A DNA stretch of 64,000 nucleotides from positions 1-64,000 of IMG/VR virus record IMGVR_UViG_2630968876_000001. One strand, given 5' to 3'. A program made the position numbers and the translations under genes. The notes under the pieces were generated by a model that ran no database searches, was not told the DNA's origin, and was given only the letters and a program-made list of their open reading frames with translations. Shown in pieces: positions 4,177 to 9,882 of this stretch (the stretch's first letter is position 1; every line of letters begins with the position of its first letter). Source of the DNA: a virus (Duplodnaviria; Heunggongvirae; Uroviricota; Caudoviricetes).

Positions 4177-5208
4177 TCATTCTCCGTCGAGAATCCCGGA
4201 CATTTTGCCTTTCTGGCTTTCAGAGCGGCGCAGGTAGCGCATAACGGTTTTCGGGTCAGTCCAGGTGCCTTCCTGCATGATCTGCGTGATGGTCGCGTCG
4301 CGCTCCGCCATATCCATCGCCGCGCCCACGCGCGCACTATGGCCGGACCATTTCGTGTAGCGCCCTTTATTGTCTTTAACCGGATCTTTACCCAGCAAAT
4401 CCCACGCATCTTTGAAAATCTTCTCCGTGGCCGGGGCGCTCATGGGCTTTTCCGACACGCCGGCCGTGTTGTTGTGGCGGACGGGACCGAATATCACGGC
4501 GTCGGGGCAGTTAATCAGCCCGGATACGTCCAGCCAGCGCAGCAGGTGGCCGGCGGCAGATTTGCTCAGGTGCTTTATCACGCCAGCGGCAGTCACCATC
4601 GTTTTTGTGTGGGTCAGGTTAACGATCACATGGCCGCTTTCGTCGATATCCAGATCGCGTACCCGGATGCGGCTCAGTTCAGACATACGGCACAGGGTGT
4701 TATAGGCCAGATACAGGAACGCCAGATTGCGCATATCGGTGAGTTTGTCAGACCGGCTCATGAGGTGCGACAGCAGCTGCAGATCCGAAAGCCGGAACGG
4801 TATGGCCTGTCCGGTTCGCTCGCCGCCCACCACGGCCTCGCGCTTGATGCGCTTCATGGCGCGCTGTACGTCCACGTTCAGCAGCAGCTGCGGCAGGCCG
4901 CACTGTTTGCAGAGCATGTTCATCATGGCGTAGTGCTTTTCGATCGTGCTCGATGCAAGCCCGCTTTCCGCCATAGACAGAAAGTAAATGCGGGCCAGCT
5001 CCGGATCGATTGGCAGATATGACAGGCCACGCGCATTGCACCACGTCGCCCAGCGCCGGATCACCGAAAGCAGATCGCGGAATGTATTCTCAGAATATGC
5101 GGCTTTATCGGCAATAAAGCGGCGCAGGTTATTTGCGACGTCCTGCGGCGTCAGCGTGGTTAATTCCGCCGGAATCACGCTGCTTTTAATTTCCGCTAAA
5201 TGTCTCAT
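4177..5208 (-). CDS. cre: Cre-like tyrosine site-specific recombinase
   Basis: Alignable by eye to P1 Cre along its length: LLSVIRRWATWC vs LLSVCRSWAAWC; RMSELSRIRVRD vs RIAEIARIRVKD; WSGHSARVGAAMDMA vs WSGHSARVGAARDMA; a VMRYLRR Tyr nucleophile region; ...LDGE C-terminus vs LEDGD. Confidence 0.92.
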   Translation of the reverse strand: MRHLAEIKSSVIPAELTTLTPQDVANNLRRFIADKAAYSENTFRDLLSVIRRWATWCNARGLSYLPIDPELARIYFLSMAESGLASSTIEKHYAMMNMLCKQCGLPQLLLNVDVQRAMKRIKREAVVGGERTGQAIPFRLSDLQLLSHLMSRSDKLTDMRNLAFLYLAYNTLCRMSELSRIRVRDLDIDESGHVIVNLTHTKTMVTAAGVIKHLSKSAAGHLLRWLDVSGLINCPDAVIFGPVRHNNTAGVSEKPMSAPATEKIFKDAWDLLGKDPVKDNKGRYTKWSGHSARVGAAMDMAERDATITQIMQEGTWTDPKTVMRYLRRSESQKGKMSGILDGE

Positions 5209-5361
5209 CTATATATTTCCCTCAAAAACAGCATGGCGTCGCTACGCAAAAGTTATCAAAACGTCAGGGGGGTTATGCGTCAGATTTCACGTAGCGACGC
5301 CTGGCGATTGTTCGTTGCCTCTTCGCTCAGAATCCGTACAGAATGCCACGATTTGCACCAA

Positions 5362-5392
5362 CTGATCATTTGATCATCCAACTACTGATCAA
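5362..5392. promoter_or_regulatory. cluster of three TGATCA (GATC/Dam) sites in the cre upstream region
   Basis: aacTGATCAttTGATCAtccaactacTGATCAag, between the lox-like site and the cre start. P1 cre promoters are known to be Dam-sensitive. Confidence 0.3.
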
Positions 5393-5409
5393 GCATACAT
5401 GAAAGCTAT

Positions 5410-5443
5410 CAAACTTTATATAATGGGTATTATTTAAAGTTTC
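5410..5443. promoter_or_regulatory. lox: lox-like recombination site (13-bp inverted arms flanking an 8-bp spacer)
   Basis: CAAACTTTATATA-ATGGGTAT-TATTTAAAGTTTC. Arms are inverted repeats (11/13) and resemble the loxP arms ATAACTTCGTATA / TATACGAAGTTAT. The site lies ~200 bp upstream of the Cre-like gene, as loxP does relative to cre in P1. Confidence 0.6.
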
Positions 5444-5653
5444 ATTTCCCGGCCAAAAACAGGCGCGGCGCGTGCTGAAGCGTCAGAAAAGTGTAAAATT
5501 TAGAATCCGGGAGGTTTTTCCGCGTGATCGGTCTCAGGGCTTCATATATGATCATCTGGCAGTCTGGTTTGTTACTTCGGGTTATAGTTCTGACTCGTAA
5601 CATTGCAGGTAACATAAAGCGTAACGGTGGCGATAACACCTGTGAGAGACATG

Positions 5654-5672
5654 CGGACTTGTAGATAATTTA
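5654..5672. promoter_or_regulatory. possible operator upstream of the C1-like repressor gene
   Basis: gtagATAATTTATAAGGtcac resembles the ATTTATTTAGAA motif family; located ~140 bp upstream of the c1-like start. Confidence 0.25.
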
Positions 5673-5804
5673 TAAGGTCACTAAATACGGACTATTCTTA
5701 ATATAGGGGTTTCTAAGAAGTTATCGTTTTACAGCATTTCTTTGCCCGTCTATATTTCCGCTTATTAAGTCCAGAGAGACTGCACAGCTGCCGCCTAAAA
5801 ATTT

Positions 5805-6893
5805 TTGGAACACATTATGCCTAAGTTTAGCGACGTAGAATTTGAACAAAGCTATAAACATTTCCTGCAGGTTCAGCGTGAATGGTTCGGCCTCATTACA
5901 CCTCTAATCGTGTACTCAGAGGAAAACGCCAATGGCGAAGATGCACGCCCGATTGCCTTCACGAACGACAAAAAGATTCTGGACCGCGCACAGCACCTGA
6001 TTACCGAATGGCAGCGCTTTGCAGACCTGGCGGACGCCAAGCGCGCAGAGACCCAGGCTAAAACGCTGGCCGTCCATATCTCGTGCTACTCGCCGGTACC
6101 GACGATCATGGTAAACCCGCGCAAGGTAATAGTAACCCGTTTTCCCGGAACGTCATCAGGCAAAGCCACCCGTGAGAGCATTCTGAACCGCTATCACCAG
6201 CAGCTGCGTAAGCTGGATAAGGTTCCTTTTGCTGCCGGCGCTATCCTCTCACTGAAAGAGGAAATGAAGGCCTTTGAAAACGCACCGGAAGGGGCGCTTT
6301 ACCGCCTGCGCATGAGCAACTACTTCGATACGCAGGTTATGGCGCGGTTTGACAGCCCGAACGATGAAAGAAACGTGGATAACTACCGTTACGGCGCTCA
6401 CGGCATGCTGATTTACAGCGAGTACATGGATCTTAAAACGGATTTCACGGCAAACCTGAATCCCTCCAGCGGTGCAGTATCAGTATTTGACCTGATAAAG
6501 CCGCTGCCATGCGCCGTGCTGCCGTCCGCCACTGTTTACCTGATGGACGACGTGGACGCCGCCAAGCTCCACCACAAGCAGATTTACGTCATTGAGACGG
6601 CTATCTACCAGCGCGAACGCCTGTTTAAAAAGCGCAGCGAGGCGCTGATGTTGCGCTCCAGCACGCAGGAACAGGCGCAGAAAGCGCAGGAGAAGATTAA
6701 AGCTGGCGCAGAAGCGGTTGCTGAACTGAATGACATGGATCGTGAACTGATGAACATGAAAACAGCGGCCGGCGACACTGAATTGCTGACCGTGCCGGAA
6801 ATGCGCGCGCGTTATGCAAATGAGTTTGGTCGCCGCAGTGGCCATACTCTGCAGCAGCTGGTGGAGCGTGCGCAGAAGCTCAGAAAGGTATAA
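5805..6893 (+). CDS. c1: C1-like immunity repressor (longer than P1 C1)
   Basis: Local similarity to P1 C1: YSPVPTIMVNPRKV vs YPVPNILRGVRKV; YRLRMSNYFDTQVMARF vs FRMRVHGFSETMLRVH. Position between the lox/cre and pacB-like genes on the opposite strand, as in P1. Confidence 0.65.
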   Translation: MEHIMPKFSDVEFEQSYKHFLQVQREWFGLITPLIVYSEENANGEDARPIAFTNDKKILDRAQHLITEWQRFADLADAKRAETQAKTLAVHISCYSPVPTIMVNPRKVIVTRFPGTSSGKATRESILNRYHQQLRKLDKVPFAAGAILSLKEEMKAFENAPEGALYRLRMSNYFDTQVMARFDSPNDERNVDNYRYGAHGMLIYSEYMDLKTDFTANLNPSSGAVSVFDLIKPLPCAVLPSATVYLMDDVDAAKLHHKQIYVIETAIYQRERLFKKRSEALMLRSSTQEQAQKAQEKIKAGAEAVAELNDMDRELMNMKTAAGDTELLTVPEMRARYANEFGRRSGHTLQQLVERAQKLRKV

Positions 6894-6947: not shown

Positions 6948-8459
6948 TCACGCCAGCAGCGCATCCAGCTCCTCCAGCTCTTTGAGTTTGCTCTCCGCAA
7001 AGTCTGCCATGCCTTCGTCAATCTCTGCCTCTGCCGGACGGTAACCCGTCAGGAAGATAAAGCAGTACGTGTCCCAGCGGTCAGGCGACTTGATGTTGAG
7101 TTTCTGGCGCATCTGAGGCTTCGGCACCATCATGATCCGCCCCATTTCATCCATGTAATACGGTATCTTCGATCCCTGCTCTGCCGTGTGCTGAGAGGCG
7201 TCTATGCGCATCCTGCCGGACCGGACAGCATCAGCGGCCATGATGTTCGCCCAGGCGCGCTGATTCTTGAAGCGCTCGCGCACCTTCTTACTGAACGGCG
7301 GTTGCCCCCAGCGGATATTGACCGCATTCACGCCCCGGCGCTCCAGCTGCTTCAGCGTGGCAGAGCCCACACCGTCACCATCGACGGCAATCGTGATCCC
7401 CGGATAGCGCTCCTGCGTACACTCGTTAGCGATGAAGTCACCGAAGGATATCGGGTCCATCGTGCCAGGCATTTCCACCAGCTTAAACGACACCACGCGC
7501 CGCGCATCGCCATGCCCGGACACCCTGCAGATGTTGAGTATCGACTTATCGCGCCCGTTACCGACGTCAGCGGTAGCCACCCAGCCCCAGCCTTTCTCCA
7601 GGTATACTTTGCGCCGCGCGGCACGATCGCACTCGTCACGCCCCAGCAGATAGCCGCTGATGTTGCGCGGGAAGCGCCCCAGCACCTTCACCATGTACTC
7701 CAGCGAGTCGCGCCCGCCATACTCCAGCAGCTTTTCCCTGATGAATTTCAGAGTAACGTGCGGCGCCTCCTCAGAATTAAGGACAATGGCATTCCAGATC
7801 CCGTCCGGGTTATCGGGGTTACGGGCTAACGAATGGTGCGAGTCATAGAAATAGCCGCTTGGCCGCGTAGGCTGCGACATCATCAGCATGCGGTTATCGG
7901 TCTCTGTCAGCGCACCACGCATGATAGCGATCGCTTTATCAGAGATACCCGACGCTTCATCGAGGATCAGCAGGATATGCGCGGCGTGCTCGCCGGCCAG
8001 TGCCTCTTCGTTACCGAGGCGGAAGCCCTTACAGAGCACTTCCCATATCCCCTTACGAGACTTCTCATAAAACATGGTGTCCGTGAGGGTGAAGTAGTTC
8101 TGCAGCCAGGGGTGACGTTTGGCGGCGTTAGCCCAGTAGGTTTTGACGTACTTGAATACGCCCGTTTTAACCTGCCCGATTTTGTTGGCCACGATGATTA
8201 CGCGCGCATCCGGGAACATGATCATGTAAATCAGCAGCATCATAGCCGTCAGGGATGATTTACCGGTACCGTGGCCGGACGTTACCGTAGTCTGGCTTCC
8301 GGTCTCCTGTACGGAGTTAAGTATCTCTTCCTGCTGCCAGGTGGGGATAAGGCCAAACAGCTCGACTACTGCCGTCGCCCAGTCATAGCGATAGCGGATC
8401 ACCATGTCGCGCCAGCGCGGATCGGTGGTGACGCTCCTGATGCGTTTTTTGCCGCTCAT
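6948..8459 (-). CDS. pacB: terminase large subunit (PacB-like)
   Basis: Walker A TSGHGTGKSS, Walker B LILDEASGI, and a C-terminal nuclease-like region. Size 503 aa vs P1 PacB 494 aa; overlaps the pacA-like stop. Confidence 0.88.
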   Translation of the reverse strand: MSGKKRIRSVTTDPRWRDMVIRYRYDWATAVVELFGLIPTWQQEEILNSVQETGSQTTVTSGHGTGKSSLTAMMLLIYMIMFPDARVIIVANKIGQVKTGVFKYVKTYWANAAKRHPWLQNYFTLTDTMFYEKSRKGIWEVLCKGFRLGNEEALAGEHAAHILLILDEASGISDKAIAIMRGALTETDNRMLMMSQPTRPSGYFYDSHHSLARNPDNPDGIWNAIVLNSEEAPHVTLKFIREKLLEYGGRDSLEYMVKVLGRFPRNISGYLLGRDECDRAARRKVYLEKGWGWVATADVGNGRDKSILNICRVSGHGDARRVVSFKLVEMPGTMDPISFGDFIANECTQERYPGITIAVDGDGVGSATLKQLERRGVNAVNIRWGQPPFSKKVRERFKNQRAWANIMAADAVRSGRMRIDASQHTAEQGSKIPYYMDEMGRIMMVPKPQMRQKLNIKSPDRWDTYCFIFLTGYRPAEAEIDEGMADFAESKLKELEELDALLA

Positions 8460-9793
8460 TCTGCGCCATCCCTGTCTTTCATAACGGATAGCATATCGGT
8501 CATAACGGATTCATCGTCGGACATAACGGATTCATCGTCGGACATGACGGATATCTCCGGCGGGATATCATCATCGTACAGGTCAGCAGTAGCCGCATAG
8601 TCAAAATTGCCGCTCAGATTGGCCTCTCCTGCGGTTTCGCCGGCGCGCATCTCTCCGTCTGCCTGGACGTCACCAAACCCGCCTTTGTCCACCAGCGCGG
8701 CAACCTCAGCACGACGCGTCTCAACAAAGGCAGCGGACGCGGCCTGTTGCCGGCGATACTCCTGCGCCTCCAGTTCCAGCTCCGCCTCGCTGACCTGGCC
8801 GCTTTCATCTACCGGCGGCTCAGCGTTCTTGAGCTCGTTTTCGAGACGTCTGGACAGAGACTCAGGCAGTTTGATGCCGTGGCGCTCGATGTACTCTGCC
8901 GTCTGCAGCAGATCCCAGTCCTCCGCCTCGCGCAGCTGGTAGGCGCGGCTGATAACCTCGCCGGCGTTATGCGTCAGCGCATGCTTCTCATTGTCGCGCC
9001 GGTTCTTATCGGTACTGCCGGCGATCGCTGCTACCCGCGTGGCGTGGTCATTAACCAGATAGCCGACCTCAATCATCAGCTTGGTCATTTTCAGGATAGG
9101 GTGTGGTCCGCCGCCGCCGTCCTCCTCCTCCCCCTTCTTTCTGCCGCTGGCCATGTTGTCGGCCTCAAGCTCAAACAGTTCTACCGCACGCGCCGTGGTG
9201 CGCTTGAGCATGTCCATGTGCGCCAGCGAGTCAAACAGCGCTGTCATGGCGCTGGCTTCCAGCCCCTCGCCCAGCACCTCTAACGCCGCTTCATAATCCT
9301 GCGGCCGCGGGTAAGCTCGCCGGTTGGCGACCAGCTTGGTTTCATGGCCTTCTTCAAAGGGTTTACCCTCGCCGCGGGGCTTGGCGGTGTGCTTCGGGCG
9401 CCCGTCACTTTGATCACCCTCATTTATGATCTTTTTGGCATGTGAAGCATTGGGCTTTTTCTTCCCGCCAGGCTGCGGCGCTGCGTCAGCGCGTGGTTCC
9501 AGCACCCCCTCCAAAGCCGCGCTGTGCCTGAGTTTGCGCCCGTTCCGGCGTATGGTGAGGTCGTCTTTTCTTGTGTGATCATTTTGATGATCAGAAGCGT
9601 GATCACCCGAATGATCATGATTGTGATCACCACTTTGATCACCCATCGCGGCCAGCGCTTTACCGTTCAGCTCCCGGCGGGCCGTGTTGAATGGCAGGTT
9701 GTAGTACTCGCAGTACTCTTTGACGGTTATCCCGCTCTCGGCCTTCTGCTCAATGAAAGCCCTTCTGTGTTCATCCCAGTTAACTTTGGACAT
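8456..9793 (-). CDS. pacA: terminase small subunit (PacA-like), with internal DH/SGDH repeat region encoded by the pac hexamer cluster
   Basis: N-terminal HTH-like MSKVNWDEHRRAFIEQKAESGITVKEYCEYYNLPFNTARRELNGK typical of TerS. Gene immediately upstream of TerL. Contains a TGATCA repeat cluster as in P1 pacA. Confidence 0.75.
   Translation of the reverse strand: MSKVNWDEHRRAFIEQKAESGITVKEYCEYYNLPFNTARRELNGKALAAMGDQSGDHNHDHSGDHASDHQNDHTRKDDLTIRRNGRKLRHSAALEGVLEPRADAAPQPGGKKKPNASHAKKIINEGDQSDGRPKHTAKPRGEGKPFEEGHETKLVANRRAYPRPQDYEAALEVLGEGLEASAMTALFDSLAHMDMLKRTTARAVELFELEADNMASGRKKGEEEDGGGGPHPILKMTKLMIEVGYLVNDHATRVAAIAGSTDKNRRDNEKHALTHNAGEVISRAYQLREAEDWDLLQTAEYIERHGIKLPESLSRRLENELKNAEPPVDESGQVSEAELELEAQEYRRQQAASAAFVETRRAEVAALVDKGGFGDVQADGEMRAGETAGEANLSGNFDYAATADLYDDDIPPEISVMSDDESVMSDDESVMTDMLSVMKDRDGAE
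8478..8565. repeat. about four tandem copies of a 21-bp unit (cataacggattcatcgtcgga) at the pacA 3' end / pacB start
   Basis: Two perfect and two degenerate copies. Encodes repeated SVMSDDE heptapeptides at the PacA-like C-terminus. Confidence 0.7.
9577..9642. repeat. pac: pac-site-like cluster of six TGATCA hexamers with exact 12-bp phasing
   Basis: GATC at 9577, 9589, 9601, 9613, 9625 and 9637. The P1 pac site is a cluster of Dam-methylated TGATCA/G hexamers inside the pacA 5' region. Confidence 0.6.
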
Positions 9794-9825: not shown

Positions 9826-9858
9826 GATGGTAAGGAGTCTGTATTTTGCAGTGATCAC
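9826..9858 (-). promoter_or_regulatory. late-promoter-like conserved motif upstream of pacA, followed by two more 12-bp-spaced TGATCA hexamers
   Basis: ggtaaggagtctgtattttgcagTGATCAcaataaTGATCAc. The first half matches the GGTAAGGAGTYTGTAATTTGC family found upstream of five other minus-strand operons; ~45 bp from the pacA start. Confidence 0.4.
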
Positions 9859-9882
9859 AATAATGATCACGAAGCGCGCAAA

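What the first reader, a model, noticed from the sequence alone, without database searches (positions are those of the whole stretch)
5362..5443. Divergent Cre/lox module: lox-like 34-bp site with loxP-related arms but a different spacer
CAAACTTTATATA-ATGGGTAT-TATTTAAAGTTTC at 5410-5443 has loxP-like 13-bp inverted arms (AtAACTTcgTATA vs cAAACTTtaTATA) and an 8-bp asymmetric spacer that differs from GCATACAT. It lies ~200 bp upstream of a Cre homologue that retains all catalytic regions but is highly diverged. It may be a naturally orthogonal Cre/lox pair. A triple TGATCA cluster (5362-5392) in the cre upstream region suggests Dam-regulated expression as in P1.
Basis: partly seen in the sequence, partly recalled or inferred. 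Interest (0 to 1): 0.6.

Follow-up and report, generated by a model that had tools for sequence, protein, structure and literature searches.

The report
Panto/pox-type Cre-like recombination site
The 34-bp palindrome is real and is almost certainly the crossover site of the neighbouring Cre-like recombinase of a P1-like phage-plasmid from Pantoea. It belongs to the already characterised Panto/pox (Dre/rox-related) system, and only its 8-bp spacer is new.

Summary
Window 5410-5443 is a 13-8-13 inverted repeat. It lies 201 bp upstream of a 343-aa Cre homologue (4177-5208, minus strand), and three TGATCA hexamers lie between the two.

The window is Pantoea sp. PSNIH1 plasmid pPSP-26e, a P1/D6-like phage-plasmid. 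The recombinase is 42% identical to Cre, 55% to Dre and about 83% to Panto, the published recombinase from Pantoea sp. aB. On the recombinase strand the site matches native pox at 25 of 26 arm positions, including pox's own arm asymmetry. It differs from pox only in the spacer (ATACCCAT against ATAAGTCT).

The residues that distinguish rox/pox from loxP recognition are the Dre/Panto ones (R44, P259, K263). The enzyme is therefore probably orthogonal to Cre/loxP but not to Dre/rox or Panto/pox. Only the spacer allele is private to this plasmid.

Comparison of about 100 related loci supports function. The arms change symmetrically between clades, the site is single-copy, and it is a junction between differently related flanks. 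The GATC cluster is invariant in the clade and parallels the three annotated Dam sites of P1 cre, but Dam regulation is not shown.

Verdict: an ordinary new member of a known kind, of low to moderate interest.

The parts
5410..5443 (.). Lox-like (pox-type) 34-bp recombination site. The arm 5410-5422 is CAAACTTTATATA, the spacer 5423-5430 is ATGGGTAT and the arm 5431-5443 is TATTTAAAGTTTC. On the recombinase strand it reads GAAACTTTAAATA-ATACCCAT-TATATAAAGTTTG.
   Evidence: Sequence and inverted repeat. It has 1 mismatch to the pox arms with 0 expected by chance. The native pox sequence comes from the PMC4957104 supplement. The same site sits at the same place in 28 Panto-clade loci. It is single-copy on the plasmid.
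4177..5208 (-). Cre-type tyrosine recombinase of 343 aa, a Panto orthologue. The catalytic residues are R174, K202, H290, R293, W316 and Y325. The specificity positions are R44, P259 and K263.
   Evidence: It matches Cre chains in the PDB at E = 1.6e-74 over residues 12-341 and Pfam Phage_integrase. Identity is 41.9% to Cre, 54.9% to Dre and 82-84% to Panto and Panto-like proteins.
5362..5403 (-). A 42-bp block, near-invariant across the clade, between the site and the recombinase gene. It holds the three TGATCA hexamers (5363, 5371, 5386). On the minus strand it can be read as a weak promoter, TTGATC-16-AATGAT.
   Evidence: TGATCA positions are. Apart from two or three positions, the block is conserved across 26 distinct Panto-clade loci. 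GATC averages 1.93 per 90 bp on the recombinase side of the site against a background of 0.43 over 91 loci. P1 has three annotated Dam sites in the equivalent place. The promoter reading is my own, matches 8 of 12 consensus positions, and fell below the scan threshold.
5234..5302 (-). Conserved inverted repeat in the recombinase leader. The core arms are 5240-5255 and 5281-5296. On the sense strand it reads CGCTACGTGAAATCTG ... TAACTTTTGCGTAGCG, matching the family pattern CGCTACGTgAAaTCTG...cAGAtTTcaCGTAGCG (this locus departs at the first three positions of the right arm).
   Evidence: The repeat was found. The same element, with a fixed 44-nt register, is present in 69 loci including P1. 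In P1 the annotated -10 of P3cre lies inside the left arm. Base-pair covariation does not exceed the shuffle control, and Rfam has no match.
5817..6893 (+). Divergently transcribed gene resembling the D6 c1 repressor (358 aa).
   Evidence: It is 28% identical to the D6 C1 repressor at E = 1e-41 and matches phrog_1678. The c1 - site - recombinase order is the same as in D6 and P1.
6948..9793 (-). Terminase genes resembling pacB (6948-8459) and pacA (8456-9793). They place the site about 4.2 kb from the pac-like hexamer arrays, as in P1.
   Evidence: PHROG terminase hits are. TGATCA arrays lie at 9576-9641 and 9852-9869. In P1 the pac cleavage site at 90806 is about 4.0 kb from lox at 94800/1.

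Best explanation
The 34-bp palindrome is the crossover site of the adjacent Cre-type tyrosine recombinase of pPSP-26e. That plasmid is a P1/D6-like phage-plasmid of Pantoea.

**Mechanism, inferred from homology to Cre, Dre and Panto.** One recombinase monomer binds each 13-14-bp arm. Two occupied sites synapse as a tetramer. Tyr325 cleaves within the 8-bp spacer, and strands are exchanged through a Holliday junction in the asymmetric central region (TACCCA on the recombinase strand). That asymmetry gives the site its direction.

**Biological role, inferred by analogy with P1.** The module resolves plasmid-prophage dimers. It also circularises terminally redundant DNA packaged from the pac site about 4 kb away.

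**Classification.** The module is an orthologue of the characterised Panto/pox system, in the Dre/rox branch of the Cre family. It has the pox arms and a private spacer allele. It should therefore recombine its own site and recognise pox or rox arms. It should not exchange efficiently with sites that carry other spacers, and it should not act on loxP.

**Expression.** Recombinase expression is probably driven through the conserved GATC block and leader dyad downstream of the site. Dam sensitivity, as reported for P1 cre, is plausible but not shown.
For: **The enzyme**
- It shows full-length homology to Cre structures, E = 1.6e-74.
- All six catalytic residues are present, and the Dre/Panto specificity residues R44, P259 and K263 are in place (their role is described in PMC4957104).
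- It is 82-84% identical to Panto and Panto-like proteins.

**The site**
- 25 of 26 arm positions equal native pox, including pox's conserved arm asymmetry.
- The site is unique on the plasmid.
- Across 26 distinct Panto-clade loci the inner 11 bp of both arms and spacer positions 1, 2 and 8 never vary. Spacer positions 3-7 do vary.
- Across 91 wider family loci, a site 170-440 bp upstream (one at -645) changes symmetrically in both arms from clade to clade. Examples are CTGACTTCATATA/TATATGAAGTCAG and CTAACATTATATA/TATATAATGTTAG.

**Evidence of natural crossover**
- Against L010, L090 and L091, identity is 61% in the 100 bp on the c1 side of the site and 87-97% on the recombinase side.
- L093 shows the opposite pattern.

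**Experimental precedent and context**
- Panto recombines pox in E. coli and in mammalian cells (PMC4957104).
- The gene order pacA-pacB-c1-site-recombinase matches P1 and D6.
Against: - No recombination assay exists for this enzyme or for this spacer allele. Activity is inferred.
- The exact spacer allele was found nowhere else: not in IMG/VR, not in JGI metagenomes, not in PLSDB. A sequencing error at 5426-5427 cannot be excluded.
- Palindromy on its own is not statistically strong.
- The outermost arm base and one inner position are asymmetric.
- The biological roles, dimer resolution and cyclisation, are taken from P1 and were not tested.
- No promoter overlapping the GATC sites reached the scan threshold.
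Confidence: 0.85

Rival explanations
1. This is the first reader's reading: a naturally orthogonal Cre/lox pair with a target specificity distinct from all known systems.
For: The enzyme is only 42% identical to Cre. The spacer differs from loxP, rox and pox. The spacer allele is unique in the collections searched.
Against: The arms are those of pox at 25 of 26 positions. They are 1-2 mismatches from each 14-bp rox half-site. The enzyme is about 83% identical to Panto. It carries the R/P/K specificity residues shared by Dre and Panto. Panto and Dre recombine each other's sites (PMC4957104). A different spacer gives site-level heterospecificity, as with the lox511 and lox2272 variants. It does not give a new enzyme specificity.
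Confidence: 0.05
2. The palindrome is mainly a transcriptional element, either an operator or promoter for the divergent c1-like and recombinase genes. On this reading it is not a recombination site.
For: A promoter-like match on the minus strand, TTGGCC-16-AATAAT at 5456-5429, overlaps the site. In many family members the arm-spacer junction reads TATAAT. P1 has a promoter, P4cre, that reads through lox.
Against: The arms equal those of a site shown experimentally to be recombined by an 83%-identical enzyme. The 13-8-13 geometry and the spacer-only variation are the signature of Cre-type sites. The site is a junction between differently related flanks. A promoter role could coexist with recombination but does not replace it.
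Confidence: 0.03
3. The module is a decayed or weak relic. The private double substitution at the spacer centre, or changes in the protein, leave it poorly active on this plasmid.
For: The spacer allele is unique. Some natural Cre-type candidates were weak or inactive in E. coli; only 8 of 17 worked in PMC10250229.
Against: The ORF is intact with every catalytic residue. The protein is 100% identical in a second plasmid and at least 96% identical in several ~90-kb viral contigs. For Cre-type enzymes the spacer sequence matters mainly for identity between the two partner sites. That is established knowledge for Cre/lox and is only inferred here. A plasmid dimer carries two identical copies of the site.
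Confidence: 0.07

Closest known systems
Panto/pox (Pantoea sp. aB; Karimova et al. 2016, PMC4957104)
   Same: Both enzymes are 343 aa and about 83% identical. The arms are the same 13 bp, including the natural AAATA/TATA asymmetry. The site sits about 200-235 bp upstream of the gene in both. Both come from ~90-kb Pantoea phage-plasmids.
   Different: The spacer is ATACCCAT here against ATAAGTCT in pox, so 4 of 8 positions differ. The outermost base of one arm differs. About 17% of protein residues differ. The flank on the c1 side belongs to another lineage.
Dre/rox of phage D6 (Sauer and McDermott 2004; record AY753669)
   Same: It is in the same branch of the Cre family, at 55% identity. The c1 - site - recombinase arrangement is the same. 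The half-sites differ from rox by 1 and 2 of 14 positions. The spacer ATGGGTAT matches rox ATTGGCAT at 6 of 8 positions. The R/P/K specificity residues are the same.
   Different: The protein is much more diverged. D6 has no GATC cluster between rox and dre. The spacer differs.
Cre/loxP of phage P1
   Same: The fold and the catalytic hexad are shared. The pacA-pacB-c1-lox-cre synteny and the ~4-kb pac-to-lox distance match. There are three GATC sites after the site, and the first TGATCA starts 19 nt from the arm in both. The leader dyad is homologous.
   Different: Identity is only 42%. The arms match loxP at 9 of 13 positions. The spacers are unrelated. There is no cra ORF between the site and the gene. 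The double TGATCA is about 45 nt further from the leader dyad than in P1.
Cre-type recombinase candidates of Jelicic et al. 2023 (PMC10250229)
   Same: That study's screen asked for a recombinase under 90% identical to Panto, and a 13-15-bp inverted repeat with an 8-bp spacer within 1 kb. This locus meets those criteria.
   Different: Whether this locus is among their ~500 predicted pairs, or among the 17 tested, could not be checked. The supplement is not held.

Membership tests
Cre-type tyrosine site-specific recombinases (Cre/Dre/Panto group) | A tyrosine-recombinase catalytic domain with the R-K-H-R-W-Y residues (Cre R173, K201, H289, R292, W315, Y324). | tested here: met
   R174, K202, H290, R293, W316 and Y325 are all present. 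Pfam Phage_integrase scores 66 bits against a cut-off of 27.
Cre-type tyrosine site-specific recombinases (Cre/Dre/Panto group) | Full-length homology to Cre, including the N-terminal DNA-binding domain. | tested here: met
   Residues 12-341 align to Cre 11-340 at E = 1.6e-74.
Cre-type tyrosine site-specific recombinases (Cre/Dre/Panto group) | A simple target of about 34 bp, two 13-14-bp inverted arms around a short asymmetric spacer, lying next to the gene. | tested here: met
   The site is at 5410-5443, 201 bp upstream. Homologous sites were found in 91 related loci.
Cre-type tyrosine site-specific recombinases (Cre/Dre/Panto group) | Recombination between two such sites without accessory factors. 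| not testable with these tools
   This needs an in vivo or in vitro assay. It has been shown for Panto on pox (PMC4957104).
Panto/pox system | The recombinase is closely related to Panto. | tested here: met
   It is 82.4% identical to the machine-read (OCR) copy of the published sequence and 83-84% to intact Panto-like proteins. Those proteins are 96-98% identical to Panto.
Panto/pox system | The arms are those of pox (GAAACTTTAAATA / TATATAAAGTTTC). | tested here: met
   25 of 26 positions match. Only the outermost base differs.
Panto/pox system | The spacer is that of pox (ATAAGTCT). | tested here: not met
   The spacer here is ATACCCAT. Seven alleles in all occur on these arms: the window's, which is seen only in this plasmid, and six others found in relatives.
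Dre/rox system | The rox sequence (TAACTTTAAATAAT-TGGC-ATTATTTAAAGTTA) together with the Dre protein. | tested here: not met
   Protein identity is 55%. The half-sites differ at 1 and 2 positions and the central 4 bp differ. Cross-reaction is expected from the behaviour of Panto but was not tested.
Cre/loxP of P1 | The loxP arms and the GCATACAT spacer. | tested here: not met
   The arms match at 9 of 13 positions, the spacer is unrelated and the protein is 42% identical.
Dam-regulated cre promoter (P1 P3cre/pR1 type) | GATC sites overlap the promoter hexamers of the recombinase gene, and expression changes with Dam methylation. | tested here: inconclusive
   Three GATC sites lie in a block that is near-invariant across the clade. 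GATC enrichment is family-wide. P1 has annotated Dam sites in the same place. The only GATC-overlapping promoter reading is TTGATC-16-AATGAT at 8 of 12 consensus positions, below the scan threshold. Methylation dependence cannot be tested here.
P1-like phage-plasmid immC/pac region | The synteny lpa-pacA-pacB-c1-lox-recombinase, with pac about 4 kb from the site. | tested here: met
   The record is a circular plasmid of 87,166 bp with repA and parM-like genes together with phage structural genes.

The most novel reading that the evidence does not exclude
The spacer of these lox-like sites may act as a fast-switching compatibility barcode.

**Evidence**
- pPSP-26e and an otherwise almost identical plasmid, CP060164, differ by 5 substitutions in 64 kb. 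Two of the five are adjacent at the centre of the crossover region, window 5426-5427.
- At least seven spacer alleles circulate on identical arms.
- The site is a junction between differently related flanks.

**What this could mean**
- Spacer changes might be generated at the site by the recombinase itself, through heteroduplex repair. Alternatively they might be selected.
- Either way they would isolate a phage-plasmid from Cre-mediated fusion with co-resident relatives while leaving its own dimer resolution intact.

**A second unexcluded novelty**
- The GATC block and the leader dyad, conserved from P1 to Pantoea, may form an undescribed control module of Cre-family genes.
Probability: 0.15. 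Interest if true: 0.5.

Novelty: new member of a known kind. Interest (0 to 1): 0.22.

Why it matters
- **Practical value.** The locus adds one natural spacer allele to the pox/rox toolbox. It also adds one more Panto-like enzyme, 17% diverged yet with identical arms, which could help map specificity determinants. It is not a new orthogonal recombinase system.
- **Biological value.** The comparative data give natural evidence that these sites are used for crossover between phage-plasmid lineages, because the flanks on the two sides have different histories.
- **Regulation.** They also suggest that the Dam/GATC architecture and a leader dyad known only from the P1 sequence are ancient, conserved features of Cre-family loci.
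- **Annotation.** The site is unannotated in the deposited record and the gene is called only 'integrase'. Neither label conveys what the module is.

Tried and rejected
- **RNA hairpin in the leader.** On its own the sequence folds well (z = -2.6). On 54 sequences, however, pair covariation equals the shuffle control (0.118 against 0.115, with 165 of 500 shuffles as high). An RNA helix maintained by compensatory change is therefore not supported. Rfam gave nothing above noise.
- **General hypervariability of the spacer.** This was rejected. Many locus pairs that are 1-5% diverged share identical spacers. Spacer divergence is only about twice the flank divergence. The window against CP060164 is a single striking case.
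- **Independent occurrences of the exact allele.** None were found in IMG/VR, JGI metagenomes or PLSDB.
- **A better 13-8-13 site elsewhere.** The other hits, at window 16670 and 29927, have unrelated GC-rich arms and are at the level expected by chance. A 1-mismatch palindrome lies beside repA outside the window (CP060164:170). It has no resemblance to lox, rox or pox.
- **A second, loxP-like site around the exact GCATACAT 8-mer at 5393-5400.** Its flanks are not inverted repeats, so this was rejected by inspection.
- **ArgR or PepA accessory control.** The literature shows no such control at P1 loxP (PMC2409434), so I did not pursue it.
- **Whether this locus is in the Jelicic 2023 candidate table.** The supplement is not held.

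Full report
**What is in the sequence.**
Window 5410-5443 reads CAAACTTTATATA-ATGGGTAT-TATTTAAAGTTTC. The repeat finder reports the dyad as 17-nt arms, 88% complementary, with 4 nt between them. In a 13-8-13 frame the arms match at 11 of 13 positions. Three TGATCA hexamers lie at 5363, 5371 and 5386. A 343-aa ORF runs from 5208 to 4177 on the minus strand, so its ATG is 201 bp from the site.

Palindromy alone is weak evidence. The window holds 3 such repeats, and shuffles gave a mean of 0.75. The sequence itself is not a chance match. On the minus strand it matches the pox arms with one mismatch in 26 specified positions, and shuffles gave no matches.

**Where the window comes from.**
The window is 100% identical to Pantoea sp. 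PSNIH1 plasmid pPSP-26e (CP009882.1, 87,166 bp, circular). The neighbouring genes are pacA- and pacB-like terminase genes, a gene 28% identical to the c1 repressor of phage D6, a dUTPase, and further on phage structural genes together with repA and a parM-like gene. The order pacA-pacB-c1-site-recombinase is the same as in P1 and D6. The site lies about 4.2 kb from a pac-like array of TGATCA hexamers, against about 4.0 kb in P1. This is a P1/D6-like phage-plasmid.

**The recombinase.**
It aligns over its full length to Cre crystal-structure chains at E = 1.6e-74. All six catalytic residues are present: R174, K202, H290, R293, W316 and Y325. Identity is 41.9% to Cre and 54.9% to Dre. It is 82-84% to Panto and to intact Panto-like proteins, which are themselves 96-98% identical to the published Panto sequence.

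Karimova et al. showed that three Cre positions, K43, R259 and G263, switch Cre from loxP towards rox. At those positions this enzyme has R, P and K, exactly as Dre and Panto do.

**The site compared with known sites.**
Native pox is GAAACTTTAAATA-ATAAGTCT-TATATAAAGTTTC. Its 8-bp spacer ATAAGTCT is read from the assay primers, because the machine-read native string in the PMC4957104 supplement has lost letters. The published assays used a version made symmetric by one A-to-T change. On the recombinase strand the window site reads GAAACTTTAAATA-ATACCCAT-TATATAAAGTTTG. The arms are the same, including pox's natural asymmetry, except for the outermost base. The spacer differs at 4 of 8 positions.

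Rox is TAACTTTAAATAAT-TGGC-ATTATTTAAAGTTA. The two half-sites here differ from it at 1 and 2 positions. A loxP arm matches at only 9 of 13.

Panto recombines pox and rox, and Dre recombines pox. Cre does not recombine pox (PMC4957104). By homology this enzyme should be orthogonal to Cre/loxP but not to Dre/rox or Panto/pox. That is an inference, not a test.

**Comparative evidence that the site is functional.**
I fetched about 100 related loci.
- In 91 of them a 13-8-13 site lies upstream of the recombinase gene, 170-440 bp away in all but one locus. It has a conserved core, TATA-AT-NNNNN-T-TATA.
- The arms change symmetrically from clade to clade. That is the signature of a dimer-binding site under selection.
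- Within the Panto clade (26 distinct loci, recombinases 80-100% identical), the inner 11 bp of both arms and spacer positions 1, 2 and 8 never vary. Spacer positions 3-7 do vary.
- Seven spacer alleles occur on these arms. The window's allele was not found anywhere else.
- The site is single-copy on the plasmid.
- It is also a junction between flanks of different ancestry. Against L010, L090 and L091, identity is 61% in the 100 bp on the c1 side and 87-97% on the recombinase side. L093 shows the reverse pattern. That is what crossover at the site between plasmid lineages would leave behind.

**A striking detail.**
Plasmid CP060164 is labelled Acinetobacter venetianus. It is the same element plus an 8.4-kb insertion of Tn3 and ISEc9-family transposase genes that carries blaTEM-1 and blaCTX-M-3. 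Over 64 kb it differs from the window by only 5 substitutions. Two of them are adjacent at the centre of the spacer, window 5426-5427, GG against TT.

If the pair counts as one event, the chance that it falls in this 8-bp stretch is about 5e-4 by my own arithmetic. Spacers are not hypervariable in general, however. Many locus pairs 1-5% diverged share identical spacers. This is one case, and an assembly error cannot be excluded.

**The GATC cluster.**
The three TGATCA hexamers sit in a 42-bp block (5362-5403) that, apart from two or three positions, is conserved across the Panto clade. The hexamers themselves are conserved in all but two loci (L094 and L106), which share one change in the first hexamer, so the block is held nearly as tightly as the arms. 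Over 91 loci, GATC occurs 1.93 times per 90 bp on the recombinase side of the site. The figure is 0.66 on the other side and 0.43 as background. These loci are phylogenetically related, so they are not independent counts.

Many clades show GATC pairs about 12 bp apart flanking a TATCAT or TATGAT hexamer. P1 has three annotated Dam sites in the cre regulatory region, one of them inside the -35 of P3cre. Its first TGATCA starts 19 nt after the lox arm, exactly as here.

The promoter scan found no GATC-overlapping promoter. The best reading I could make by eye is TTGATC-16-AATGAT, which matches 8 of 12 consensus positions. Dam control is therefore a reasonable inference with good conservation behind it, but it has not been shown.

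**The leader dyad.**
Between the GATC block and the start codon lies an inverted repeat with arms at 5240-5255 and 5281-5296. Its family consensus is CGCTACGTgAAaTCTG...cAGAtTTcaCGTAGCG. The same element, in a fixed 44-nt register, is present in 69 loci including P1. There the annotated -10 of P3cre lies in its left arm.

Pair covariation does not exceed the shuffle control, and Rfam has no match. The element therefore looks like a sequence-conserved DNA dyad rather than an RNA helix. The P1 annotation I retrieved shows no feature for it. I found no paper describing it, although my searches were not aimed at it.

**Verdict.**
The module is an orthologue of the characterised Panto/pox system and differs only in a private spacer. 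It is a new member of a known kind, of low to moderate interest.

The more interesting leads are side observations:
- the spacer-only difference between near-identical plasmids;
- the junction of differently related flanks at the site;
- the conserved GATC and dyad architecture shared with P1.

Noticed in passing
window 9576-9641 and 9852-9869 (minus-strand pacA-like gene 8456-9793): Six TGATCA hexamers lie at an exact 12-bp period inside the pacA-like gene. There they encode a repeated ..DH.. peptide. Two more lie just upstream of its start codon. This resembles the Dam-methylated hexamer arrays of the P1 pac site.
   Followed up: partly
window 5234-5302 (arms 5240-5255 / 5281-5296): A sequence-conserved dyad lies in the recombinase leader. 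Its family consensus is CGCTACGTgAAaTCTG...cAGAtTTcaCGTAGCG. It is present in a fixed 44-nt register in 69 loci, including P1 at 115-178. There is no base-pair covariation and no Rfam match. The central ~20 bp are inverted in L056, L061 and L085.
   Followed up: partly
window 5426-5427 against CP060164.1 24530-24531: An otherwise near-identical plasmid differs from the window by 5 substitutions in 64 kb. Two of them are adjacent at the spacer centre: ATGGGTAT here against ATGTTTAT there. The window's allele was found in no other collection.
   Followed up: partly
window 5444-5830 against 5209-5409; loci L010, L090, L091, L093: The site is a junction between differently related flanks. Identity to close relatives jumps from about 61% on the c1 side to 87-97% on the recombinase side. 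For L093 the pattern is reversed.
   Followed up: partly
loci L016-L080, first 50 bp after each lox-like site: Many clades of the wider family have GATC at +1, +13, +30 and +42, that is in pairs about 12 bp apart. The pairs flank a -10-like TATCAT or TATGAT hexamer directly beside the site. This is possibly a conserved Dam- or SeqA-sensitive promoter abutting the recombinase-binding arm.
   Followed up: partly
window 5393-5400: The exact loxP spacer 8-mer GCATACAT lies inside the clade-conserved block beside the site. Its flanks are not inverted repeats, so it is probably a coincidence.
   Followed up: no
window 5596-5638: Two direct repeats, CGTAACATTGCAGGTAACA and CGTAACGGTGGCGATAACA, lie 24 bp apart between the c1-like gene and the site. 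They are possible repressor operators.
   Followed up: no
window ~1777-1781; CP060164.1 12509-20880: CP060164 is labelled Acinetobacter venetianus but is the same Pantoea-type phage-plasmid. At this point it carries an 8.4-kb insertion with Tn3 and ISEc9-family transposase genes, blaTEM-1 and blaCTX-M-3. The host label looks doubtful.
   Followed up: no
window 5176-5208: The deposited annotation starts the 'integrase' 11 codons late, giving 332 aa. The 343-aa start (MRHLAEIK...) matches the N-terminus of published Panto (MKHLAQIK...) and the RefSeq calls in relatives.
   Followed up: partly
CP060164.1 170-203 (outside the window, just upstream of repA): A 13-8-13 palindrome with one mismatch, TGTTTATAAACAT-GCTAGACG-ATGTTTGTAAACA. 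It is unrelated to lox, rox or pox arms and is probably a repA or origin control element.
   Followed up: no
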